Of a DNA stretch of 64,000 bases, positions 15,850 through 36,250 are shown piece after piece. This DNA is from Dictyostelium discoideum (Eukaryota): assembly GCA_000004695.1 (NCBI GenBank), contig CM000151.3, positions 960,001 to 1,024,000 of the forward strand, read 5' to 3'. A model generated the notes under the pieces. It did not search any database. It was not told where the DNA came from and saw nothing but the letters and a program-made list of their open reading frames with translations. A program made the position numbers and the translations under genes. Each line of letters begins with the position of its first letter. The stretch's first letter is position 1.

Positions 15850-16908
15850 ATGGATCCAGGGGAAAGGAAAAGAGATCTCCTTCCAAGTGATGACGATGGT
15901 GGTGATTTAGAAAATAGAAAATCTAGAAGAGAAGACAATATACGCCATCCTCAACAACAACAACAACAACAAAATTATCAACAACAACAAAATTATCAAC
16001 AACAACAAAATTATCAACAACAACCATATGACCAACAATCACAATCGTCATCACAAGGTGGATACTATCAACCCCCTCCACCTCCTCCAAGTGGATATTA
16101 TCAATCACCACCACCTTATTCACGAGCTGGATATGATCCATATGGTTACTATGCTCCACCACCACAACATCAACCAAATAGTTATTACCCACAACAACCA
16201 AGTTTTGATCCATACTTCCAACAACAATATCAACCACCACCACCACCACCACAACAACAACAACAACAATATCAACCACAATCACAACAACAACAATATC
16301 AGCCTCAACAATCTCATGGATATGATTATCAACAATCATACCAAGGTTATCAAAACCAACAGCAACCTCAACAATCCCAAGAAAACCAATCCCAACAACA
16401 ACAATCCCAACAATCCCCACAACCCCAACGACCCCAACAACAATCCTATCAATCGTATCAACAACAACAACCTCAACAACAACAACAAGATATATTCCAA
16501 GTTCCTCAAGATAGAAATAGAAGTTATAGAGATAGTGGTGGTGATAGAGGAAATGGTTCTTCTGGAAATGACAACTATGGATATCAAAGAGGAAGAGGTA
16601 GAGATAATAATAATAATAATAATGGTGGTGGTGGTAGTGGCAGTGGCGATAGGTATGGTAGTGGCAGTGGTGGCAGTGGTGGGGATAGATATAGTGGTAG
16701 AGGTAGAAGAGATTTTGGAGATAGAGATAACAATAATAACAATAATAATAATAATAATTATAGAAATAGAGGATACAATAATAGAGATAATGGTAGCGGG
16801 AGTAGTGGCGAAAAAGATTACGGTTCATTATCTCCACCATCATTTGGTAATGCACAATCAACAACATCAAGTATTATTCCACCTCCCAGAACAATTAGTG
16901 ACTCACCA

Positions 16909-16973
<65 letters not shown>

Positions 16974-17458
16974 TGATGAAGGCAGTGGATATTATGAAGA
17001 TGAAGTCAATAAATCCTCAAACAACAACAACAACAGCAGCAACAACAATGAAAAAACCACAACAACCACAACAACGGGTAGCACCATACCAAAATCTCCT
17101 TCACATTCACCATCCCCTTCACCATCCCCTTCACCATCCCCTTCACCATCAAATTTATCATCAAATACATCAACCACAAAACCAATATCCTTCACAAAAA
17201 GGGTTAGGGATGATGATGTAGCTGGCATAATAACAAATAAACAAGAAAATGAACAAAAACCAAAATTATCAACACCTGTTAAATTATTAACAAATAGATA
17301 TATTTTAAATACTGATAAATCAATTCAAATTTATCAATATGATGTTGCATTTAATGTAAGTTATTTTTTTATAATATGTATATATATTCTATATTAGATA
17401 ATGAATTATTAATGTTAATATAATTTCAATTTAATAAATATTTTTATCTATACACCTA

Positions 17459-17494
<36 letters not shown>

Positions 17495-19610
17495 GCCACC
17501 ATTATTTAATAGATCAAAAAAATATGATATAATTTCAAGTTTAACAAAACAAATTGGAGTAAATATTTATGATGGATCATCATTAATGTATTGTAATAGT
17601 AATACTATAAAAGAACGTTCATATGAAGTTGAAGATGATATAAAAGTAAAGATAACATTGATTCAATTATTGGATGAATCAGCGGTAATTCAATTTTATA
17701 ATGTTTTCATGAAAAGAGTTATGAGATTATTAGGTTATTCAGTAGTTGGTAGACAATATTATAATAGTCAATTATCAAAGTCGATTGAACGTTCAAGTTT
17801 AAATATTTGGCCAGGTTATTTCACATCAATCAATAAAATATGTGCTGGTGTTTCTTTATTAGTTGATGTCTCTCAAAAAGTAATAAGAAGACAATCAGTT
17901 TTATCAACTATAAAAGGTGGACATAGTGGTTATGGAGGTAGTGAACGTGGTGGTGGTGGTGGTGGTGGTGGTGGTGGATTTAGAAAATCAAGACAAGAAA
18001 TTGAAAATGAATTAACTGGATCAATTGTAATAACATTATATAATAATAAAACCTACCGTATTAACTCGATTGATTGGGATAAATCACCAATGTCAAAGTT
18101 TAGTACAGATAAAGGTGATGTTTCATTCATTGAATATTATAAGATAACTTATGGCCGTGAAATTAGAACTATGGATCAACCATTATTAGTATCACGTTCA
18201 AAGGGTAAGAATAAGGATAATGATGTATTTCTAGTACCAGAATTATGTAACTTAACAGGTATAAGTGATGAAGATCGTAAAAACAATTCAATGATGAAAG
18301 AATTATCTGAACATATCAATGTAGAACCAAAGAGAAGATTTCATACGATTCAATCATTTTTAGATTCGATAGCATCAAGTGATGTAATTAAGGAACAAAC
18401 TTCAAAGTGGGGTCTATCATTTCAATCTCCACTAGAGGTAATTGCAAGTCAATTTCAACCACCAATGAAGGATATACCACGTTATAAAAAGTTGAAAGAT
18501 ATTTGGGCAGTAATTGTATCTGAAGATAATAAGAATTGTATCGATCAGTTTGTACGTCTAATGTTTGAAAAGTTTACAATGGAGAGACCAATTGTAAGAG
18601 TAATTAAACACAATCCAATGGGAAGAGATTACTCTATGGCAATTAAAGATTTGGTAGAAAGAGATAATCCATCATTCATAGTTGTAGTTGTAAACGGTGT
18701 TAAAACTGATTTATACAATTCAATAAAGAGAACTGCAATATTGGAATGCAAGGTCATCACTCAAGTCCTAACGGTTAAAACCATAACCAATCAAAAAATA
18801 AGTTCAATATTTTCAAAGATCACCAATCAAATCAATGCAAAAATTGATATTCCACCATGGACTTTAAAAGAGAATTCAAATTTTGGTATTCCAAATTATA
18901 CAATGGTAGTTGGTATTGATGTTGGTCATAATACCGATAAGGAATCAAGATCGGTTGCAGCTTTTTGTGCTTCAGTAAATCATAGTTTTACAAATTTTTT
19001 TGTTGCATGTAGTATTCAAAAACAAAATACTAAAGAGGTCATTCATTCATTGGGTAACTCTATGAATTGTGCTTTAAGATCTTATTATGCAAAGAATGGT
19101 CGTCTTCCTTCAAATATTATAGTTTATCGTGATGGTGTTAGTGATGGAATGCTCGATCAAATCAATAAACATGAAGTATCATCAATTAGGGAATCATTCA
19201 ATCAATTACCCCAATCAATGGGTCCAAAACCAGCTTTAATCTATATTGTTGTAAAAAAACAAACTCACCTTCGTCTATTCAATATGTCAAGAGATCTTGG
19301 TAATCCTGATCAAGGTGTTGTTGTAAATAAACCAGTTACAAAAGAAAGATGGTATGAATTCTTTTTAGTCTCTCAAAGAACTCATAAAGGTACTACAAAT
19401 CCAACTCATTATCATGTACTTCAAGATGATACAGAAATTGAAATGGAATCTTTACAACAATTAACATTCAATTTATGTTTTCTTTATTTCAATTTTGATC
19501 AAGCAGTTTCTGTACCAATGGTATGCCAATACTCTCATAAAAGTGCACTTTTATGTGGTAAATCTTTAAATGCTACTACTCCAGATGAAATGAGTAATCA
19601 TTTATTCTTT

Positions 19611-19616
<6 letters not shown>
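15850..19616 (+). CDS. Argonaute/Piwi-family protein with a roughly 500-aa Q/P/RGG-rich N-terminal low-complexity region. Exons 15850..17355 and 17496..19616.
   Basis: PAZ-like segment: ITYGREIRTMDQPLLVSRSKGK...VFLVPELCNLTGISDEDR. Piwi motifs: GIDVGHNTDKESRSVAAFCASV, IIVYRDGVSDGM, PTHYHVLQDD, PMVCQYSHKSALLCGKSL. A phase-0 intron runs GTAAGT...(TA)n TTTAG. The N-terminus contains poly-Q, PPPP, RGRGRD, GGSGS and SPSPSPSP repeats. Confidence 0.88.
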
Positions 19617-20018: not shown

Positions 20019-20051
<33 letters not shown>

Positions 20052-20069
20052 GAACATTGTAATTGGAAA

Positions 20070-20546
20070 ATGTCAAAAGAATCAAGAATATTTATTGAAA
20101 TTAGTGAAAATATAATTGATTTAAATTATTGGTATAAAATTGTATCAGATGATAGTAGTGGTGCAACCTCATCATTTTTAGGTACAACAAGAAATGAATT
20201 TAAAGGTAAATCAGTTGAAAGATTAGAATATGAAACCTATGAACCAATGGCAATTAAAGAGATTGAAAAAATTTGTAAAACTATATTAAATGGATTTGAA
20301 AATGATATTAAAAAAATTGGTATTGTTCATAGAATTGGTAATGTTCCAGTTGGTGAATCAAGTATATTAATTGTAATTTCTTCTGGTCATAGAAAATCAT
20401 CATTAGAAGCTGTTCATTATGCTATTGACACAATTAAATCAACTGTACCAATTTGGAAAAAAGAATTTTATACTGATGGTTCTGAGAATCAATGGAAAGG
20501 AAATTGTGAATCTTGTCATTTTAATAATAATAATCATCCTCATTAA
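20070..20546 (+). CDS. Molybdopterin synthase catalytic (large) subunit MoaE / MOCS2B
   Basis: The block LEYETYEPMAIKEIEKI...IGIVHRIGNVPVGESSILIVISSGHRKSSLEAVHYAIDTIKSTVPIWKKEFYTDGSENQWKGN matches the MoaE signature (HRxG...SSxHR...PIWKKE). The first ATG is at 20070; the upstream ORF start is a TTG. Confidence 0.85.
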   Translation: MSKESRIFIEISENIIDLNYWYKIVSDDSSGATSSFLGTTRNEFKGKSVERLEYETYEPMAIKEIEKICKTILNGFENDIKKIGIVHRIGNVPVGESSILIVISSGHRKSSLEAVHYAIDTIKSTVPIWKKEFYTDGSENQWKGNCESCHFNNNNHPH

Positions 20547-20878
20547 ATAATTAAATAATAACAATACATGTATATATAAAAAAATAAAAATTAATAAAAA
20601 TGAGATAATTATATTTGTAAATAATTTAATTTTTTTTATTTTTTTTTTTTAAAAAAAAAAAAGATATTTTTATTTTTTTATTCTTAAGGATAAAAACAAA
20701 CCACCACTTGTGTTTAAAATCTTTTTTTTATTTTCATTTTTTTTTTTTTTAATTTTTTTTTTTTTTTTTTTTTTTATTGTTTGAATTTCATTATTTTAAT
20801 TTTTTTTTTTTTTTTTTTTTATTTAATTTTTCTAATCATTTAAATAAAATATTTTGTAATAATAATAATAATAATAAA

Positions 20879-21778
20879 ATGATTAATAGATTATTTTCAA
20901 TTAATAATATTAAAAATGGATCAAAATTTTTTAGTTCATCAACAACAGTTGAAACTAAACAACCATTAGTTTTATTAGAAAAACATTTAGTAAATGGAAA
21001 ATATACAGGTATTCAAATTGTTAAATTAAATAAACCAAAACAATTGAATGCATTAACATTTGAAATGGGAGTTGATTATAAGAAGGTGGTGGATACATTA
21101 GCAGAAGATAAAGATTTGAAATGTGTTGTATTGACAGGTGAAGGTAAGGCATTTTCGGCAGGTGGTGATTTAGATTTCTTAATTGAAAGAACTAAAGACA
21201 CACCAGAAAACAATCAAAGAATTATGGAAAGATTCTATAGAACATTTTTATATATTCGTTCATTACCAGTACCAATCATTTCTGCAATCAATGGTGCAGC
21301 AATTGGTGCAGGTTTCTGTTTAGCTTTAGCAACTGATATTCGTGTCGTTAGTAATAAAGCACCAGTGGGTTTAACATTCACCAAATTAGGTATTCATCCA
21401 GGTATGGGTGTAACTCATTCAATTACAAATATAGTTGGTCAAGATGTTGCATCCTATATGTTATTATCAAGTGATATTATCAAAGGTGATGAAGCTCAAA
21501 GATTAGGTTTAGTTTTAAAATCGGTTGAATCTGATCAAGTTTTACCAACTGCTTTAAATCTCGCTGAAACAATCTCAAAAAATTCAACTATCGCTGTAAA
21601 CTCTACAACAAAAACTTTACGTAATAAATATAATTCAGATTTAGATAAAAGTTTAACTCGTGAAGCTGATGCTCAAAGTCAATGTTGGGCTTCAAAAGAT
21701 ATAGTTGAAGGTATTTTAGCAATTAGAGAAAGTAGAGATCCAAAACATAATTATTTATTATTTGATGATCAAAAATAA
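20879..21778 (+). CDS. Enoyl-CoA hydratase/isomerase (crotonase) family protein, probably mitochondrial
   Basis: Crotonase motifs [18 protein letters not shown] and [27 protein letters not shown]. An N-terminal presequence [26 protein letters not shown] at 20879 within the longer ORF. Confidence 0.85.
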
Positions 21779-21924: not shown

Positions 21925-23245
21925 TTATTTTCTTTTTATAGTTTTCTTTTTTTGAACTTTATTTGGAGTTGATTTTTTATGAACTTGAATATGATTTAAA
22001 AAAGTTGGTTTTTGTCTTTCTTCTCTTTTATCTAATACAATTTTAGATTTACATCTCCACATACACCAATATGGATCATAGAAATAATCTTTTAGACGAA
22101 CTTGTTCTTCTTTAACTCTAATATCGATGAGTTCTTCTTTATCCAATAAACCAATGGAAGAGATAATAACAGGTGTGTTGGTATCATTAGTATTTGGCAT
22201 TTCAGGTACAACCAAATCATCATTAATACCAGTTGAAGAGGAATCTTCAAATTCTTCTATACCATCTTCAGTTGAATGTAAACCATCGAAATAGAAATAA
22301 AAGTATTGTTCTTCCTCTGGATCGAAATGAAGTATTGGTTTACCCAATTGACATTCTCTACAAATAAAAGGTTGGGTTGAACATTCACGAGTACATGGTA
22401 AGCCAAGACAATGTAAATGAAAAGCTCTTAAACAACTACCTTGACAGACTATCAATGGGACTGGTTGAGTTGACATTGTAATGATATCACCACTTGGAAT
22501 AATGTTACCATTGGCATCCAATGTTGGTGGTGGTGGTGGTTGTTGATATGGAATGGGTGGTTGTTTACACATGTCACATACCAATGCAACAATCTCTGAT
22601 TTATATTGTGCATCGATTTCACATTGATGTAAATGTTGTTGATATTGTTCTTCAAATTCTTTATCGAGTTCCTCAACTGATTCCATTGGATCATTGCTAT
22701 CGTTGGCAGCGATTGCAGCATTTACAATCTCCATTACATTTGAGAAAACCAATTTAATATCTTGATAGATGATTTGATAATCTTTATAGTATTTAGTAGT
22801 TAATCTCTTTTCAATTGTACCTAAATCCATTGGATTCTTTATGTGATCTTTATATTTGGATTGATCGCCAAATGGTTCTCTAATTTGTTTAGTTCTTGTA
22901 TCTTTCATTAATTGTAAAACCATTGATTTCAAATGATCAATCATTAATTCATTCAAAATTGGTTTAGTAGTTTTAACTTTTGGACGATAAACTTGTTTTG
23001 CCCATTTTTGTTGTTGTGCAATATGAGCTTGTTGAATTTGAATTTGAAGTGCTTGTTGTTGTCTAAATATTTGTTCTTCTTGTGTTAATTCACGACCATC
23101 TTCACCAATAATTGGTTGTTGTTGTTGAATTTGTTGTTGTTGAATTTGTTGTTGTTGTGGTTGTTGGTGTTGAATTTGTTGTTGTTGATGCTGTTGTTGT
23201 AATTGTTGTTGTTGGTGTTGTTGTTGTAATTGTTGTTGTAAATAC

Positions 23246-23299
<54 letters not shown>

Positions 23300-24089
23300 A
23301 AATATTGTTGTTGTTGTTGTTGTTGTTGTTGTAAATATTGTTGTTGTTGTTGTTGTTGTTGACGATGTTGCATTAATCCTAATGACTGTTGAGATTGAGG
23401 TGTATTAAAAATATTATTTATTAATTGTTGTGGAGTTGGAGTTTGTTGTTGTGGATGATGATTTTGAACTGGTGTATGATAAATATTATTTATAATTGCA
23501 GATTTAATTGGTGTAATATTACTAATTGGTTGTTGTTTTATTGGTGTTGGGAAATTACTATTACCATTCATCATATTATTTCCATTTGAAAGTGGGGTAC
23601 CATTTTGATTGGTTGTATCATAACCCATATGATCACCCATTGTCATTGGACCACCCATTGGGTTATTTGATCTTTGACGTCTTGAATCTTGTTGTTGTTT
23701 AATATAACATTTTTTACATTTACTTGCACGTGGATAAAATTCTGATAATGGTAGAATAGAATTTGTATTCCACCATTGTTGATGTAATGGGTGTTGACAT
23801 GCTTGATAGTTTATTCCTGGTTGTTTCTCTACTTGTGGTATATCCATTGGTTGTGGTGAATGTTGTGCTTGTGCTGCTGCTGTGGCCGCTGCTGCTGCTG
23901 CACGTATTGGTGTTTGTTTAGATTGTTGTTGTTGTTGTTGTACCTGTTGCTGTTGTTGTTGTTGTTGTTGTTGTTGATATTGATATAATAGTGCTTGTTG
24001 TGCTTGTTGTTGTTGTTGTTGTTGTAAATAGTGTTGTTGCTGTTGTTGTTGGGCTTGTTGTTGCTGTTGTTGGGCTTGTTGATAATATA

Positions 24090-24127
<38 letters not shown>

Positions 24128-25047
24128 GCTGCTGCTTGTTGCTGTTGTTGTAATAATTGTTGTTGTTGTAATTGTTGTAATTGTTGTGGTGTAAACATCA
24201 TTTGTTGAGAATAAGGTGCGACCATTGGTTGTTTAACAGGTGTCATAATTGGTACGCCACCACTAATGGTACCACTTGATACAATTGGACTAATTGCTGA
24301 TAGTTGTGGTGGTGCACTTACACCTTTATTATTATTATTGCTATTACTACTAATTAAAATGGGTGACATTGCATTAATGTTTGCTTCAATTGAACCATCT
24401 GAAGAATGTTGTTGTTGTTGTGCAACGGCAGCAGCTTGTTGTTGTTGTTGTTGTTGTTGTTGTAATAGTTGTTGTTGTGCTTGTTGTTTTTTACTCTCTT
24501 TAACTGGAATTATAGGTGAATGATTAATATGTTTAACTCTAGTTGGATCAACTGGATCACCATCTTGTTCATGTCTTGAAATGTGACGACTAAAGTTGGC
24601 TTGTAATGATTTATTACAATTTAAAAAGAAACATGTATAGAAACCCTCTTCATTTTTATGAAATAAATTTGAACCATACTTTTCCCTTTGATAATTCATT
24701 AAACCTGGACCATCGGTTTTCATCAATGTATTGGGTGTTGGTGGTGCACTACCAATTGGTGGTGTTGTAACAATGGTTGAATTTGTCATTGTTGGTGTAA
24801 TAGCTGATGCTTGAATTGGTGATGTCACTAATTGTTGTTGTTGTTGTTGAGCTTGTTGTTGCACTTGTTGTTGTTGTTGTTGAGCTTGTTGTTGTTGTTG
24901 TGTTTGTTGTAACAATGGATTTATTAATCCAACCAATGGTGAATGTAATTGTTGTGAATGTAACATACCTGTTGTATCTGTACCTGGTAATGGTAATGGT
25001 AATGATGTTTGACCATACAATCCATTATATAAACCATATGGATTCAT
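21925..25047 (-). CDS. Bromodomain-containing poly-Q nuclear protein with a PHD-like Cys cluster and a C2H2-like finger
   Basis: Bromodomain-like IREPFGDQSKYKDHIKNPMDLGTIEKRLTTKYYKDYQIIYQDIKLVFSNVMEI. PHD-like C..C...C..C.HLHC...C..C cluster (CDMCKQ...CQGSCLRAFHLHCLGLPCTRECSTQPFICRECQ). C2H2-like YTCFFLNCNKSLQANFSRHISRH. Very long CAA/CAG poly-Q runs. Confidence 0.7.
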
Positions 25048-25725
25048 TTTTTTTCTTTTTTTTTTTTTTTTTTTTATTTATTTATTATTTATTTAATTAG
25101 TTTAGATTGAAACTTTTTTTTTTTTTTTTTTTTTATTAATGTAATCTTTTTTTTTTTTTCTTTATTTTTTTTTTTTAAAAATTGTTTATTTGATTGATGT
25201 ATGAATATTAAGAATATTATTAAATACTAATAAATATGATATTAAAAAATAGTTTGTTTTATTTTATTATATTTTTACAAATAAATAAATAAAAAAAAAA
25301 AAAAAAAAAAGTGTTTAATTTAATTCCAAAAAATTTTAAAAAATGCAAAATGAAAAATAAAAATAAAAATAAAAAAAAAAAAAAGAGGGATCGATTTCAA
25401 TTCCCAAATGTTTTTAGTTTTTTTGTTTTTTTTTTTTTTGTCTTTATTTATGTGTACACACAACAAAAAAAAAAAAAAAAAATTTTTAAAAAAAAAAAAA
25501 AAAAAATTGAAAATTTTGAAAAATTAAAAAATTAAAAAAAAATAAAAATAAAAAAAATAAATATTTTTAAAGGAAATTAACGGTCATAAGAAATTGAGGC
25601 GACATTTAAATTTTCCATTTTTTTTTTTTTAAAGTGCCATTAAAATATCCAAATAAAGGTTTTGGAATTAAACAAAAGAAGATATTTTTTTTTTTTTTAG
25701 AATTTATAATTTTTAACTTTAATTA

Positions 25726-25769
<44 letters not shown>

Positions 25770-25803
25770 TATAAATTTCCTAATTTTATTTATAATACTA
25801 TTA

Positions 25804-26106
25804 TTAATCAATTAAAATAAATTCAATTAAAAATAAATCTAATAAACCTGGATAAATTTCGGAAATAACATTTTTTAATTGATCTAAAGTCATATTCTCT
25901 TGAATTGCATGTGTTTCATTTAAATGGTCAAAATTAATTTGCGAAACTGATAAAATTTTAATATTACAAAAATATATATTATCTTCATATCTTGAAACTC
26001 TAACTATATCACCCTCTTTAAGATCACCTTCTCTTCTAATTGTAATTGTTTTCTTCTTTTCTAATATGTCTTTTTCAAAACGTTTGTAAAATGTTATTTC
26101 TTTCAT
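25804..26106 (-). CDS. ASCH-domain protein resembling bacterial YqfB (N4-acetylcytidine amidohydrolase), about 100 aa
   Basis: MKEITFYKRFEKDILEKKKTITIRREGDLKEGDIVRVSRYEDNIYFCNIKILSVSQINFDHLNETHAIQENMTLDQLKNVISEIYPGLLDLFLIEF aligns almost block for block with my recollection of E. coli YqfB ([23 protein letters not shown]...[20 protein letters not shown]...[22 protein letters not shown]...VIEF). The upstream part of the 133-aa ORF is poly-K/F junk. Confidence 0.75.
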   Translation of the reverse strand: MKEITFYKRFEKDILEKKKTITIRREGDLKEGDIVRVSRYEDNIYFCNIKILSVSQINFDHLNETHAIQENMTLDQLKNVISEIYPGLLDLFLIEFILID

Positions 26107-26306
26107 TCTAACTTTTTTATTAATCTTTCTAAAATAATAAAAAAAAAAAAAAAAATGAAAAAAAAAAACAAAATCTATTTTTAATTTTTTTTTTTTTTTT
26201 TTCATTTTTTTTTTTTTTTTTGTGCAAAATTGTCTATTTAATTTATTTATAAATTTAATTTATATTCAAATAATTTTTTTTAAAAATTAATTTAATTTTT
26301 ATTTTT

Positions 26307-27112
26307 TTAAAGATCAGTTGAAATACTAATTTCATTCCATTGATTAATATCATCTAATAATGAATTGAAATGAAGTTTTGAATCTTGAATAGCATCATAA
26401 CCAAAGAAAATATTAGTTGGTAATGGTTTATCTTGTTGATAAAGTTCAAAAATTTTTACGATTGCATTTGCAAATTTATCATGTGAACCTCTAGTAGTTT
26501 CAGCTAATTTAAGGAAATCTTTCAATGAATTATCAATGCTTGATAATGGATGATATTCGTCGATTGGATTTTCAATGACTTTGAATTTCTCTTTATTTGT
26601 AATATCAGGTCTGAAACCACCTGGAGATAATAATAGTACTTTGACATTAAACGGTGCCAACTCTTTGTTGAGTGACAATGTCAAGCCGGTGACAGCGTAT
26701 TTGCTGGCTGAATAGGACGATGTCTTACCTCTAGGTCTGTGTCCTAAAATACTAGAAACGTTTAATATCAAACCTGATCTTTGTTTTCTTAAATGTGGTA
26801 TTGTCGATCTAACGATATTCAACACTGCGAAGTAATTAACGTCGAAAATTGCTCTTGCCTCTTTATCACTCGTCTCTTCAACATTACCCAATTGTGAATA
26901 GCCTGCATTATTAATCACAACATCAATATGGCCAAATGTTTTAATGGTCTCTTTAACACCCTCTTCTACACTCTCTTCATTTGTAATATCAACTTGAACA
27001 ACTAATAATGATTTAAATAAATCAATCTTATTCTCTGTTTCATAATATTTTTTAATTTCATTTTCAACTGTTGATTTTGATCTTGTAAATGCTGAAACTT
27101 TAAATTCTAAAA

Positions 27113-27151
<39 letters not shown>

Positions 27152-27317
27152 AAGTTAGAAAAATAAAATAAAATAAAATAATAATAAAATAATAATAATA
27201 CTTACTATTGTCTAATAATTTCTTAACAATTGATAAACCTAATCCAGTTGATGTACCTGAAACGAGGAATACTTTATCAGTGTTTTCTTTTTGATTAGCA
27301 ATAATTGTTGGTTCCAT
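26307..27317 (-). CDS. Short-chain dehydrogenase/reductase (SDR). Exons 27206..27317 and 26307..27106.
   Basis: N-terminal Rossmann motif VFLVSGTSTGLGLSIVKKL in exon 1, the NNAG motif (VVINNAGYS) and catalytic YSASKYAV (YxxxK). Intron GTAAGT...TTTTAG with phase 1 checked. Confidence 0.85.
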
Positions 27318-30963: not shown

Positions 30964-33900
30964 TTAATAATTAATTGGTGGTGTAATTGTTGGAATTGGT
31001 TCATTTGTGTTAATGCTCCATTCTTTTTTAAATTTTTTGATGGTTTCGGACCATTGGGTTTCTTTTTGAGTTTTTGTGAGGTTGTTTTTAATTGAGTATT
31101 GGTTAAAGTTTGATAAAGTTCTTGAATATTCCAATCTTATTAGCTTGTGCCATTTTGATTTTAATATATCATAATCTAGTGTTGTGTTGTTTATTTGGTT
31201 GTTCCAATTATCAATTGATTGAGTTATATTGATGTCAAATAATGATTTGCATAACCATATCCATATTTGGTGAATAACTAATGAGATTATGTTCCAATAT
31301 GCATGTGTTCTGACTAGATCAAGATTTGTGTTTATATAATTCCAGTTGAACCTGTATTTTTTATATTTTGCGTTTTCTGCAAAATGAAAATTAATATTGA
31401 TAGTTGGATCTGGTTTAAATGCTTTGTTGTTTGTTTGTGGTTTATAGATGAGTGTGTATAATTTTGTTGTTTGGTTTTTTGTTAGTGACCAGTTTTTGTT
31501 TCCATTGCAATTTTTATATATAAAATATTTTAATTTGTCGTGGTTAATGAAGTTGATTGTGTGCTGACAATTGAAAAACAAATGACCATAGGGATCATTA
31601 TTCATTTCATTGTTGCAAATGGGGCAAACTTTGTTGTGTAGATGATTAATCGGAAGACATCTAGCATGGAATCTTTGCATTGTATCTCGGCCTTTTGGAT
31701 CTTTTAATTTTTGAATTTTGACAAAAAGTTGGTCGTATGTGTATTTCCATAATAGTTGTATTGATTGTTGGTGCGAAGTAAGAAGTAGATCTGAATATTT
31801 CTTGCCAATATAGTCTTTTGATTTGCATTGGTGATTGTTTAGTATTGTCGAGTAGATTTCTTTGAGTGTTGGTGGTAGTGAAATATTATTTGTGTTTAAT
31901 GTTTGAGAGGGTTGGTTTTTTGTTAATATTGGTTGTAGGATTTGAACTTTATCTTTTAGATGTCCAATTTGAGTTGCATAGTTTTCCCATTCTTTTTTGA
32001 TTTTTATAAGGTATGGAGAAGAGATTGATTTGTTGATGATTTGATCCATCCAACTTATCATGTATATTGAATTGTTTGCAGATTTATGCATTTGTAAAAA
32101 TCTGTTGTATATCCAAATCTTTTGAGCAACTTGTCGTAATTGTATATTCCACATACCCCAACCACCTTCTTTTAATGGTTTTAATGATCTATCATAACAC
32201 ATCAAAGGTATTTTTGCACGTGAATGGATGGTTGATGTGTTGTTTTCAATGGAATTGGTATTGAGAGTTGGTGATTCAGAATTTGCGGGAGAATTCATAA
32301 ACCATGAGATTAATTTATTAATTTGAATTTCTTCATCTTTTGTAAATTCTTCAAGGTATGATAAATATGTTATTGGTGATAGTGAGTAGGTGTTTATGAT
32401 GGTTGTTTTTGTTTTTAATGTTGTGCCACTAGTTTTCCATAGCACTAATGATTTAATCAGTGTTTTCATTGTTTCTGGTAATTTCCTATGTAAACCATTA
32501 TGATTAAAGAAATAGCCAAGAACTCTTTCTGATTGATCTTTTTTGGTTATTGGTATTCTTTTTGATTGTGGAATGTTGTTTATTATGTGTTTATCAGTGA
32601 TTTTGTGGGGGTTGATTTCTATTATTGCACTTTTGTCAAAATTTAATGATGATGATGTTGAAGCGCAGAAATTATCGAAATGTTTGATTGATTGTTGTTG
32701 TTGTTCGTAGTTGATGTTGTATGTTGTAGAGTCGTCTGCAAATTGGGTAAATTTGATTTTAATTTGTGGATTGGGTGAAATTGGTAATCCAATTATTGAA
32801 TTGTCTGCATTTATTGTTCTTGCTAATATTTCAATTACAATTACAAATAAAGTGGCTGAGATTGGGTCACCTTGTTTTACACCTCTTTTAATATCGAATT
32901 TTCTGGTCGTTTTACCATTAATTGAAATTTTTGCTTGTGAGTCAGATAATAGCTTGTGGATTAAATTTATTAATTTTATTGGTATACCAATATGAATTAA
33001 TGTTCTTTTAATGCTATCGTGAGAGATAGAATCAAATGCTTTAAAGAAGTCAAATAGTGTGATGATACCAGGGAGGTTTTTAGATTTGAGGTAGTTGATT
33101 AATTCATTGATGTTGATGATGTTGTCTATGATGAATCTGTGGGGTACGAAACCAGTTTGGTTGTTGTTGATGATGAAAGGAAGTATTCTCAGAAGACGTG
33201 CATTGATTACTTTTGAGAGGATCTTGTAATCAGTGTTTAGAAGTGTAATGGGACGACGATTTGATATGAGTAAGGGGTTGCCTTTCTTGTATATTGTGTG
33301 TATAAGACCTTCTGTGAATTCTGTTGTGATGTGGTGAGGATTTTCTAGTATATCGTTGAATAATGTAGTGAGAATTGGTTTAACTTGGTTTAAATGATTA
33401 ATGTAGAATGCATTTGTAACGCCATCTGGACCGGGTGATTTGTTGGGGTTACAGGTTTTAATTGCAGCTTCAACTTCATCTTGTATAAATGGTGAGTCTA
33501 AACCATTCCAATATTCATTTTTTATGATGGGCCATGTGTTTAGCATGAGCTGGTGAGTAATTGGACAACATATTTGTAAGCTATATAGATTTGTGTAGAA
33601 TTCAACAAACGCATTTTCAATTTGGTCGGGGTCGGATGTAATGATGTTACCATATTGGATTGATTCAATTTTTGCATCTTTTGATCTTTTGTTTAGTATT
33701 GCTGATAGATACTTGCTAGGTATTTCTCCATTTATATGTTTTTTTAATATGTTTGTGTGGTTTTGATGTAATTTGTTTTTGTTACATATAATATTGTATT
33801 CAGCGATGCATTGTTCTTCAAGATGTTTGAATTTTGCTGCTTTTTCTAATAGTATTTGTTTTGCACGTTGAGTTTGTTTGTCTTTGTTATATTGATAGTT

Positions 33901-36179: not shown

Positions 36180-36250
36180 TGCGTATGCTGGGAATCGAAC
36201 CCAGTTCGCATCCGTGGCAGGGATGCATCATACCACTAGACCACATACGC
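36180..36250 (-). tRNA. tRNA-Gly (anticodon GCC)
   Basis: Minus-strand read GCGTATG TG GTCTAGTGGTATGAT GCATC CCTGCCAC GGATGC GAAC TGGGTTCGATTCCCAG CATACGC A. It has a 7-bp acceptor stem, A box TAGTGGTA, anticodon loop CTGCCAC, and B box GGTTCGATTCC. Confidence 0.9.

What the first reader, a model, noticed from the sequence alone, without database searches (positions are those of the whole stretch)
25804..26106. Bacterial-type YqfB/ASCH protein in an amoeba genome (horizontal transfer candidate)
The 100-aa product is colinear with E. coli YqfB (N4-acetylcytidine amidohydrolase) across nearly every conserved block. It is intronless and its N-terminal extension is junk. Dictyostelium is known to carry bacterial-derived genes acquired by HGT, and an ac4C amidohydrolase would be a compact nucleoside-salvage or modification-removal enzyme.
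Basis: partly seen in the sequence, partly recalled or inferred. Interest (0 to 1): 0.5.

Follow-up and report, generated by a model that had tools for sequence, protein, structure and literature searches.

The report
Bacterial ac4C amidohydrolase gene in Dictyostelium
A 100-codon, intron-free gene in this social-amoeba chromosome encodes a bacterial-type enzyme that removes the acetyl group from the modified RNA building block N4-acetylcytidine; the amoeba lineage most likely took it from enterobacteria of the kind it eats, and the gene itself is already annotated.

Summary
Window 25804-26106 (minus strand) is an intact 100-codon ORF, identical to the annotated D. discoideum AX4 protein XP_002649189.1 / C7FZY0 ('UCP029143 family protein').

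- **Family:** it passes NCBI's equivalog model for N4-acetylcytidine amidohydrolase (131.8 bits, cut-off 93). It matches E. coli YqfB at E = 4e-28. Its model superposes on the YqfB crystal structure (TM 0.85, 1.5 Å). It keeps Lys, Thr, Arg, His, Glu and Tyr of the active site.
- **Distribution:** the only close eukaryotic relatives found are orthologs in D. citrinum, D. dimigraforme and D. firmibasis (83-90% identity, same chromosomal position). The next best hits are Enterobacterales (Rahnella, Pragia; 63-65%).
- **Phylogeny:** neighbour-joining trees put the amoeba clade (100% bootstrap) beside the Rahnella/Pragia group in 57-67% of replicates.
- **Host features:** third-codon-position GC content (GC3) is 0.11, as in neighbouring genes. 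dN/dS is 0.16-0.25. The neighbours are ordinary amoeba genes.
- **Outgroups:** the syntenic D. purpureum locus lacks the gene, which is also missing from the published list of 16 Dictyostelium transfer candidates.

Verdict: a real, functional, fairly young bacterium-to-amoeba gene transfer of a known enzyme. It is a modest addition and not a new kind of system. No enzyme assay or expression data were available.

The parts
25804..26106 (-). Coding sequence (100 codons plus stop) of a YqfB-type N4-acetylcytidine amidohydrolase, single exon. Active-site residues by alignment to E. coli YqfB: K19 (K21), T22 (T24), R24 (R26), H66 (H70), E70 (E74), Y85 (Y89).
   Evidence: Structure model has pLDDT 87 and TM 0.85 to 9kyf/9kyh. 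GC3 is 0.11 and dN/dS is 0.16-0.25 among four species.
26107..26205 (-). Spurious upstream extension of the mechanical ORF. It is A/T-homopolymer-rich 5' flank and not part of the protein.
   Evidence: The translation is low complexity. The annotated protein and the orthologs start at the ATG at 26106.
26206..26306 (.). Remaining A/T-rich spacer between the amidohydrolase gene and the stop codon of the upstream SDR gene. Together with 26107-26205 it forms the presumed short promoter and 5' UTR region (inferred).
   Evidence: Sequence. GC is about 0.13 for 25001-26000. No bacterial-like ORFs lie in the flanks.
25048..25803 (.). A/T-rich 3' flank between the amidohydrolase gene and the start of the downstream bromodomain-PHD gene (21925-25047, minus strand). 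This is typical Dictyostelium intergenic DNA.
   Evidence: The flank aligns with D. citrinum as part of a 4.6 kb block at 79% identity (window 27723-23227).

Best explanation
The gene encodes a small (about 11.8 kDa) single-domain ASCH beta-barrel enzyme of the YqfB family. It most likely hydrolyses the N4-acetyl group of free N4-acetylcytidine, and of related N4-acylcytosines and cytidines, to give cytidine plus acetate. Lys19 would act as the base, Thr22 as the nucleophile, Glu70 as the acid and Arg24 as the oxyanion hole, as in E. coli YqfB.

The likely physiological role is pyrimidine salvage. Cytidine deaminase cannot act on ac4C until the acetyl group is removed. An amoeba that digests bacteria and turns over its own rRNA and tRNA releases ac4C, so the enzyme would open that pool to salvage.

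The gene entered the nuclear genome of an ancestor of the D. discoideum species complex by horizontal transfer from an enterobacterium close to today's Rahnella/Pragia (Yersiniaceae/Budviciaceae) lineages. It has since been fully adapted to host base composition and kept under purifying selection.

Shown here: family membership, fold, residue conservation, chromosomal integration, orthology and synteny in four species, purifying selection, and bacterial affinity. Inferred: enzymatic activity, physiological role, exact donor, and timing relative to D. purpureum.
For: **Family**
- NF003443 equivalog scores 131.8 bits against a cut-off of 93. The three orthologs score 128-131 bits.
- E = 4e-28 to E. 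coli YqfB.
- The AlphaFold model (pLDDT 87) matches the YqfB crystal structures best: 9kyf/9kyh at TM 0.85-0.86, rmsd 1.5-1.7 Å. Other ASCH proteins are far weaker.

**Active site**
- The mutationally essential K21, T24 and R26, and the important E74, H70 and Y89 (PMC6972931), are all conserved.

**Function in bacteria and the need for deacetylation before deamination**
- PMC6972931 and bioRxiv 10.64898/2026.08.01.741249.

**Real host gene**
- Exact protein in AX4 and other isolates.
- Orthologs at 83-90% identity in D. citrinum, D. dimigraforme and D. firmibasis, always directly upstream of the bromodomain-PHD gene, followed by ECH, MoaE and Piwi.
- GC3 of 0.11 against 0.11-0.16 in neighbouring genes.
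- dN/dS of 0.16-0.25.

**Bacterial origin**
- The nearest non-Dictyostelium proteins are Rahnella inusitata, Rahnella spp. and Pragia fontium at 63-65% identity.
- In neighbour-joining trees the Dictyostelium clade has 100% bootstrap, and its sister lies within the Rahnella/Pragia/Rouxiella group in 57-67% of 500 replicates.
- A profile of that bacterial clade scores 147-151 bits. Profiles of Enterobacteriaceae, Pasteurellaceae and Vibrionaceae score 117-131 bits.
- The family is narrow: 94 clusters at 50% identity in 1.8 billion representative proteins. Every named bacterial member is gammaproteobacterial.

**Outgroups**
- The D. purpureum locus, with orthologous bromodomain and ECH genes, and the P. 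violaceum ECH locus have no tblastn hit even at E = 10.
Against: - No enzyme assay or expression data were available, so activity is inferred from homology.
- Asp27, reported as 100% conserved in the 2020 alignment, is Arg25 here. A 2-residue deletion follows it, and Gly19 of the GK[T/S]R octapeptide is Lys or His. However, Pragia has Glu at the Asp position, and several bacterial members lack the Gly.
- Support for the exact sister group is only moderate. The alignment has 100 sites, and the trees are neighbour-joining with a simple distance correction, not maximum likelihood.
- Absence from D. purpureum and other dictyostelids was tested only at one syntenic locus, which is a synteny breakpoint, and in the protein hits shown. 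Whole genomes were not searched.
- A tRNA-eraser role, as claimed for YqfB-type proteins in vitro, cannot be separated from nucleoside salvage with these tools.
Confidence: 0.82

Rival explanations
1. The protein acts mainly on RNA, as an ac4C 'eraser' for tRNA or rRNA, rather than on the free nucleoside. The transfer would then have given the amoeba a regulator of RNA acetylation and not a salvage enzyme.
For: A 2026 preprint reports that YqfB-type amidohydrolases lower tRNA ac4C when overexpressed in E. coli. It also reports that they remove ac4C12 from eukaryotic (wheat germ) tRNA in vitro.
Against: E. coli yqfB deletion does not change tRNA ac4C levels. An earlier study found no nucleic-acid binding by YqfB-like proteins and assigned them to pyrimidine salvage. 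kcat/Km for the free nucleoside is about 2e6 per M per s. The Dictyostelium protein has gained no RNA-binding extension.
Confidence: 0.12
2. The gene is an ancient eukaryotic or amoebozoan gene inherited vertically and lost almost everywhere else, or it was passed from amoebae to bacteria.
For: A second eukaryotic lineage, a marine protist, also carries a YqfB-type domain. The 2026 preprint says the GK[T/S]R type occurs in 'some eukaryotes'.
Against: - The Dictyostelium clade sits beside one derived enterobacterial group, not at the base of the family.
- The marine eukaryote groups with Vibrionaceae instead: 138 bits against 109-118, and it is the sole sister of Dictyostelium in only 3.4% of replicates.
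- No homolog appears among the displayed hits from any other amoebozoan.
- The D. purpureum syntenic site is empty.
- Bacterial members span Enterobacterales, Pasteurellales, Vibrionales and Alteromonadales, which rules out an amoeba-to-bacteria direction.
Confidence: 0.03
3. The ORF is bacterial contamination of the assembly or a decaying, non-functional insertion.
For: It is short and intron-free, and it was absent from the first published list of transfer candidates.
Against: - GC3 is 0.11 and overall GC is 0.215, against 0.41-0.46 in the Photobacterium homologs and host-like values in the neighbouring genes.
- It is embedded in A/T-rich intergenic DNA between intron-containing amoeba genes.
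- It occupies the same position in independent assemblies of four species and several isolates.
- The ORF is intact in all of them, with dN/dS of 0.16-0.25 and all catalytic residues kept.
Confidence: 0.01

Closest known systems
E. coli YqfB, N4-acetylcytidine amidohydrolase (PDB 1te7, 9kyf/9kyg/9kyh; NCBIfam NF003443; PIRSF029143/UPF0267)
   Same: Same length class (100 against 103 aa). Single ASCH beta-barrel domain. About 53% identity and colinear. Conserved Lys/Thr/Glu triad plus Arg, His and Tyr. Modelled fold superposes at 1.5 Å.
   Different: Encoded in a eukaryotic nuclear genome with host codon usage. Has a 2-residue deletion after the catalytic Arg. Asp27 is replaced by Arg, and Gly19 by Lys or His. 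Activity is untested.
YqfB of Rahnella inusitata / Rahnella spp. / Pragia fontium (Yersiniaceae/Budviciaceae)
   Same: These are the closest sequences outside Dictyostelium, at 63-65% identity. They share the motifs VRVSRYED, FFCNI, VISEIYPGL and LF.IEF. They are the sister group in neighbour-joining trees and give the best clade-profile score.
   Different: 101 aa, with the two extra loop residues. Genomic GC is roughly 45-53% (from general knowledge, not measured here).
The 16 classical Dictyostelium horizontal-transfer candidates (ThyA, IptA, Ppk1, PscA, ColA Cna_B, TerD/CapA-B, OsmC and others)
   Same: Bacterial-type domain absent from plants, animals and fungi, embedded in a bacterial clade, and now a normal nuclear gene.
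   Different: The ASCH/YqfB gene is not on that list. All 16 have D. purpureum orthologs. This gene was found only in the D. discoideum species complex and is missing from the syntenic D. purpureum site, so it appears younger.
Human EOLA1/EOLA2 and TRIP4 (TRIP4-like clade of ASCH domains)
   Same: ASCH fold. EOLA1 is reported to deacetylate free ac4C for nucleotide salvage, which is the same proposed physiological job.
   Different: A different clade of the superfamily, with Glu instead of Thr at the nucleophile position. There is only remote structural similarity to the Dictyostelium model (TM 0.55 or less, E above 0.04).

Membership tests
YqfB-type N4-acetylcytidine amidohydrolase (NCBIfam NF003443 equivalog) | Whole-protein score above the curated equivalog cut-off | tested here: met
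   131.8 bits against a cut-off of 93, covering profile positions 4-103 of 104. The orthologs score 128-131 bits.
YqfB-type N4-acetylcytidine amidohydrolase | Single ASCH (PUA-like) beta-barrel domain of about 100 residues | tested here: met
   Pfam ASCH at 2.6e-17 over residues 4-98. Model pLDDT is 87, with TM 0.85-0.86 and rmsd 1.5-1.7 Å to 9kyf/9kyh.
YqfB-type N4-acetylcytidine amidohydrolase | Catalytic Lys21 / Thr24 (or Ser) / Glu74 triad and Arg26 oxyanion hole | tested here: met
   K19, T22, E70 and R24 align to these positions and are invariant in a 56-sequence alignment. Residue roles are taken from PMC6972931.
YqfB-type N4-acetylcytidine amidohydrolase | Supporting residues His70 and Tyr89 | tested here: met
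   H66 and Y85 are conserved.
YqfB-type N4-acetylcytidine amidohydrolase | Asp27 and the leading Gly of the GK[T/S]R octapeptide, reported as conserved in close YqfB relatives | tested here: not met
   The residues are Arg25 and Lys17 (His in D. firmibasis). Neither position is invariant in the wider family: Pragia has Glu, and several bacterial members lack the Gly. I treat this as variation within the family, not exclusion from it.
YqfB-type N4-acetylcytidine amidohydrolase | Hydrolysis of ac4C / N4-acylcytosines to cytidine/cytosine | not testable with these tools
   Needs a recombinant enzyme assay.
Bacterium-to-eukaryote horizontally transferred gene | Eukaryotic sequences nested inside a bacterial clade | tested here: met
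   The Dictyostelium clade has 100% bootstrap. Its sister lies within the Rahnella/Pragia/Rouxiella group in 57-67% of 500 neighbour-joining replicates. Clade-profile scores favour that group by 18-28 bits. Support is moderate, and no maximum-likelihood test was run.
Bacterium-to-eukaryote horizontally transferred gene | Stable integration in the host chromosome, not contamination | tested here: met
   Host-like GC3, eukaryotic neighbours, and conserved synteny in four species.
Bacterium-to-eukaryote horizontally transferred gene | Absence from sister eukaryotic lineages | tested here: inconclusive
   No other dictyostelid or amoebozoan appears among the displayed protein hits. The D. purpureum and P. 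violaceum loci fetched have no hit at E = 10. Whole genomes could not be searched, and only 120 of the 668 profile hits were displayed.
TRIP4/EOLA1-like eukaryotic ASCH clade | Glu at the position two residues upstream of the catalytic Arg (GKER motif), and closest similarity to eukaryotic ASCH domains | tested here: not met
   Thr22 occupies that position. TRIP4 and EOLA1 structures match only weakly (TM 0.43-0.55).

The most novel reading that the evidence does not exclude
This may be a recent, lineage-restricted capture of a prey-bacterium enzyme: after the split from D. purpureum, from a soil or water enterobacterium. It would give the D. discoideum complex a way to use ac4C released from digested bacterial tRNA and from its own RNA. 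A marine protist independently captured the Vibrionaceae version. Together they would be a case of repeated 'you are what you eat' acquisition of the same modified-nucleoside salvage step, which animals cover with the unrelated-clade enzyme EOLA1. A bolder variant is that the amoeba protein has been co-opted as a eukaryotic tRNA or rRNA ac4C eraser.
Probability: 0.3. Interest if true: 0.55.

Novelty: new member of a known kind. Interest (0 to 1): 0.38.

Why it matters
The enzyme family and bacterium-to-Dictyostelium transfer are both established, so this is an addition, not a discovery of a new kind. Three things give it some value.

- It is not on the standard list of Dictyostelium transfer candidates, and it appears younger than all of them. 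It therefore offers a datable example of how a bacterial gene is taken into an extremely A/T-rich eukaryotic genome: GC3 has fallen to 0.11 while 63-65% protein identity to the donor group remains.
- The likely donors are Enterobacterales, the same kind of bacteria these amoebae are grown on and eat. That fits feeding-driven transfer.
- How eukaryotes recycle ac4C has only just been addressed, through human EOLA1 in 2026. A genetically tractable amoeba that uses the bacterial solution gives a simple test system.

Tried and rejected
- **Bacterial genome scan:** Donor taxonomy had to come from named protein hits instead.
- **Plasmids and phages as vectors:** the 'plasmid' hits are mostly mislabelled chromosomes or megareplicons carrying chromosomal yqfB. 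The phage hits are weak (37%) or are a Salmonella contig. No mobile carrier is indicated.
- **First tree:** the first neighbour-joining tree, which included very divergent family members, gave unstable placement by long-branch attraction. It was redone on a core set.
- **Link to the nearby deaminase gene:** rejected as a cluster. In D. discoideum the dCMP/cytidine-deaminase-type gene lies about 14 kb away behind a retroelement and tRNA block, and three genes separate it from the amidohydrolase gene in D. citrinum.
- **Literature:** searches for C7FZY0, UCP029143 and XP_002649189 found nothing. The Eichinger 2005 genome paper is not held, so the updated list in Sucgang 2011 was used.
- **Promoter/terminator scans:** not run, because the tool's bacterial consensus does not apply to a eukaryotic gene.

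Full report
**1. The observation**

Window 25804-26106 on the minus strand is an ATG-to-stop ORF of 100 codons. The mechanical ORF list extends it to an ATG at 26205. The extra 33 residues ([33 protein letters not shown]) are read from A/T homopolymers. The database protein, the three orthologs and the bacterial homologs all begin at or next to MKEITFY.

The window is extremely A/T-rich: GC is 0.13-0.38 per kilobase. It carries poly-glutamine proteins. The 100-aa protein is identical to D. discoideum AX4 XP_002649189.1 / UniProt C7FZY0, 'UCP029143 family protein', on an 8.48 Mb contig. It also occurs in several other D. discoideum isolates. The gene is therefore already annotated, under an uninformative name.

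**2. What the protein is**

- Pfam finds an ASCH domain over residues 4-98 (2.6e-17).
- NCBI's equivalog model for N4-acetylcytidine amidohydrolase (NF003443) scores 131.8 bits against a cut-off of 93, over nearly the whole profile.
- Against solved structures, the only sequence hits are E. coli YqfB: 1te7 at 4.4e-28 and 9kyf at 6e-27. The alignment is colinear with a single 2-residue gap.
- An AlphaFold model built on 56 homologs has mean pLDDT 87. It superposes best on the YqfB crystal structures 9kyf/9kyh (TM 0.85-0.86, rmsd 1.5-1.7 Å).
- Other bacterial and archaeal ASCH proteins match at E of about 1e-5 to 1e-2. The eukaryotic TRIP4 and EOLA1 domains match only remotely.

Mutagenesis of E. 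coli YqfB showed that Lys21, Thr24 and Arg26 are essential. Glu74 contributes about 1000-fold, His70 about 10-fold and Tyr89 about 3-fold (PMC6972931). All six are present here as K19, T22, R24, E70, H66 and Y85, and they are invariant in my alignments.

Three differences exist, and the first is shared by all four Dictyostelium sequences:
- a 2-residue deletion directly after the catalytic Arg;
- Arg in place of Asp27;
- Lys or His in place of the first Gly of the GK[T/S]R octapeptide.

Neither substituted position is invariant across the wider family. Pragia has Glu at the Asp position, and several bacteria lack the Gly.

**3. It is a genuine, functional amoeba gene**

The neighbours are ordinary Dictyostelium genes:
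- a 1040-aa poly-Q bromodomain-PHD protein directly downstream (21925-25047);
- an intron-containing short-chain dehydrogenase (SDR) directly upstream (26307-27317);
- enoyl-CoA hydratase (ECH), MoaE and a Piwi/PAZ gene further on.

Orthologs with 90, 86 and 83% identity exist in D. citrinum, D. dimigraforme and D. firmibasis. In each species the gene lies directly upstream of the bromodomain-PHD gene, followed by ECH, MoaE and Piwi. A 4.6 kb block around the gene, including non-coding flanks, aligns between D. discoideum and D. citrinum at 79% identity.

Codon third-position GC is 0.11, the same as the neighbouring ECH (0.11) and bromodomain (0.125) genes. It is far below the 0.41-0.46 of the Photobacterium homologs fetched. 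Pairwise dN/dS among the four species is 0.16-0.25, with dS of 0.31-0.47. Contamination and pseudogene explanations are excluded.

**4. Where it came from**

An exhaustive HMMER scan of 1.84 billion representative proteins found only 94 clusters with E of 0.001 or less, so the family is narrow. A profile search of the 5.8-billion-cluster collection returned 668 proteins with E of 1e-10 or less. Every named one among the 120 listed is gammaproteobacterial: Enterobacterales, Pasteurellaceae or Vibrionaceae. Shewanella and Endozoicomonas members were named.

The closest sequences to the amoeba protein are:
- Rahnella inusitata (cluster P0206, 64-65%);
- Rahnella spp. (P0134, 62-64%);
- Pragia fontium (63%);
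- unnamed 101-aa relatives.

They share the motifs VRVSRYED, FFCNI, VISEIYPGL and LF.IEF.

In a neighbour-joining analysis of 75 non-redundant core sequences, the four Dictyostelium proteins form a clade in 100% of 500 bootstrap replicates. Their sister group is exactly the Rahnella/Pragia/Rouxiella group in 38% of replicates and a subset of that group in 57%. Core members of that group appear in the sister group in 67%.

As a tree-free check, I built HMM profiles from four bacterial clades. The amoeba sequences score as follows:

| Clade profile | Score (bits) |
|---|---|
| Rahnella/Pragia-like | 147-151 |
| Enterobacteriaceae | 123-131 |
| Pasteurellaceae | 117-123 |
| Vibrionaceae | 121-124 |

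The only other eukaryotic occurrence found is a marine protist: a Tara/MERC transcript and a 708-aa EukProt model joining DUF726 to the YqfB domain. It is 48% identical to the amoeba protein. It groups with Vibrionaceae in the tree and scores best against the Vibrionaceae profile (138 bits against 109-118). It is the lone sister of Dictyostelium in only 3.4% of replicates. That points to two independent acquisitions from different donors, not to a shared eukaryotic ancestor.

**5. Timing**

The ECH ortholog served as an anchor to fetch the D. purpureum and Polysphondylium violaceum loci. In D. purpureum the bromodomain-PHD ortholog (40% identity over 361 residues) still sits next to ECH. Upstream of it lie 2.7 kb with no called gene and then a ComC-type gene. 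tblastn with the amoeba or the Pragia protein finds nothing anywhere in the locus, even at E = 10.

No D. purpureum or other dictyostelid protein appeared among the displayed homologs. This supports acquisition after the split from D. purpureum and before the radiation of the D. discoideum complex. It is not proof: the site is a synteny breakpoint, whole genomes could not be searched, and only 120 of the 668 profile hits were displayed.

**6. Is the transfer already known?**

The updated list of 16 Dictyostelium transfer candidates (Sucgang et al. 2011, PMC3188802, Table 2) does not contain an ASCH/YqfB gene, and all 16 have D. purpureum orthologs. A 2026 D. giganteum genome preprint repeats the same domains. 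Papers on YqfB do not mention Dictyostelium. [quoted passage not shown] Searches for the accession numbers found nothing. Within the library available, the transfer inference is unreported. It would, however, be evident to anyone who ran BLAST on the annotated protein.

**7. Mechanism and role**

By homology, the enzyme hydrolyses N4-acetylcytidine and related N4-acyl cytosines to cytidine or cytosine plus the acid, through the Thr/Lys/Glu triad with Arg as the oxyanion hole. In E. coli it allows N4-acetylated pyrimidines to feed uracil auxotrophs.

Cytidine deaminase cannot act on ac4C until it is deacetylated, and humans use the distantly related ASCH protein EOLA1 for this step. A phagotroph that digests bacterial tRNA and its own acetylated rRNA and tRNA would profit from the same step, so salvage is the most likely role. 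A tRNA-eraser role, reported for YqfB-type enzymes in vitro and on overexpression, remains a minority alternative. E. coli yqfB deletion does not change tRNA ac4C, and an earlier study detected no nucleic-acid binding by YqfB-like proteins.

**8. Verdict**

This is a new eukaryotic member of a known enzyme family, acquired by a known process, and the gene model is already in the databases. Interest is moderate to low. Its main merit is as a comparatively young example of bacterium-to-amoeba transfer that has fully taken on host base composition, with a plausible prey-derived donor, and as a tractable system for studying ac4C recycling.

Noticed in passing
window 30964-33546 (-) and 36180-36250 (-): An 860-aa reverse-transcriptase ORF (Pfam RVT_1, 2.9e-31) lies about 2.6 kb from a tRNA-Gly(GCC) gene. 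This looks like one of the tRNA-targeted non-LTR retroelements typical of Dictyostelium. The tRNA region is 97.6% identical to a segment of the D. citrinum locus (L007 7994-8075).
   Followed up: partly
window ~40392-41198 (-); L007 3720-4494; L002 1488-2248; L001 1674-2433: A 224-225-aa deaminase gene of the dCMP_cyt_deam_1 / MafB19-deam type is conserved near the amidohydrolase gene in all four species. It is about 5.5 kb away in D. citrinum but about 14 kb away in D. discoideum, because of the retroelement/tRNA block. I judged it probably coincidental rather than a salvage cluster. Its substrate was not examined.
   Followed up: partly
P0109 (EukProt g14249.t1, 708 aa), P0113 (MERC ERR1711871), P0111: A marine eukaryote carries a YqfB-type domain (136 bits on NF003443). 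In one gene model it is joined to a DUF726 domain. It groups with Vibrionaceae, which suggests a second, independent bacterium-to-eukaryote transfer. The species is unknown, and the fusion could be a gene-model merger.
   Followed up: partly
window 26307-27317 (-); L007 8838-9853; L002 4180-5172: The intron-containing short-chain dehydrogenase lies next to the amidohydrolase gene in D. discoideum and D. citrinum, and one gene away in D. dimigraforme. It gives no tblastn hit in the D. firmibasis (L001) or D. purpureum (L005) loci, so its position, and perhaps its presence, varies between species. Its own origin was not examined.
   Followed up: no
P0014, P0016, P0032 (metagenome proteins, 270-331 aa): Three of the four closest representatives in the 50%-identity library start with a complete YqfB domain (60% identity for P0014 and P0016, 47% for P0032). 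They then run on into long Lys/Asn/Ile-rich tails. This may be read-through or gene-calling artefacts on short A/T-rich contigs. The source organism is unknown.
   Followed up: no
P0031 (264 aa), P0070 (230 aa): These are bacterial domain fusions of the YqfB-type ASCH domain: PqiA-like membrane domain + ASCH, and ASCH + two SH3 domains.
   Followed up: no
window 15850-19616 (+), 20049-20546 (+), 20777-21778 (+), 21925-25047 (-): The gene context is a Piwi/PAZ (Argonaute-type) gene with a poly-Q, low-complexity N-terminus, then MoaE, an enoyl-CoA hydratase, and a 1040-aa poly-Q bromodomain-PHD protein. The order is conserved in D. citrinum, D. dimigraforme and D. firmibasis. In D. purpureum only the bromodomain-ECH adjacency is kept, with ECH inverted.
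   Followed up: partly
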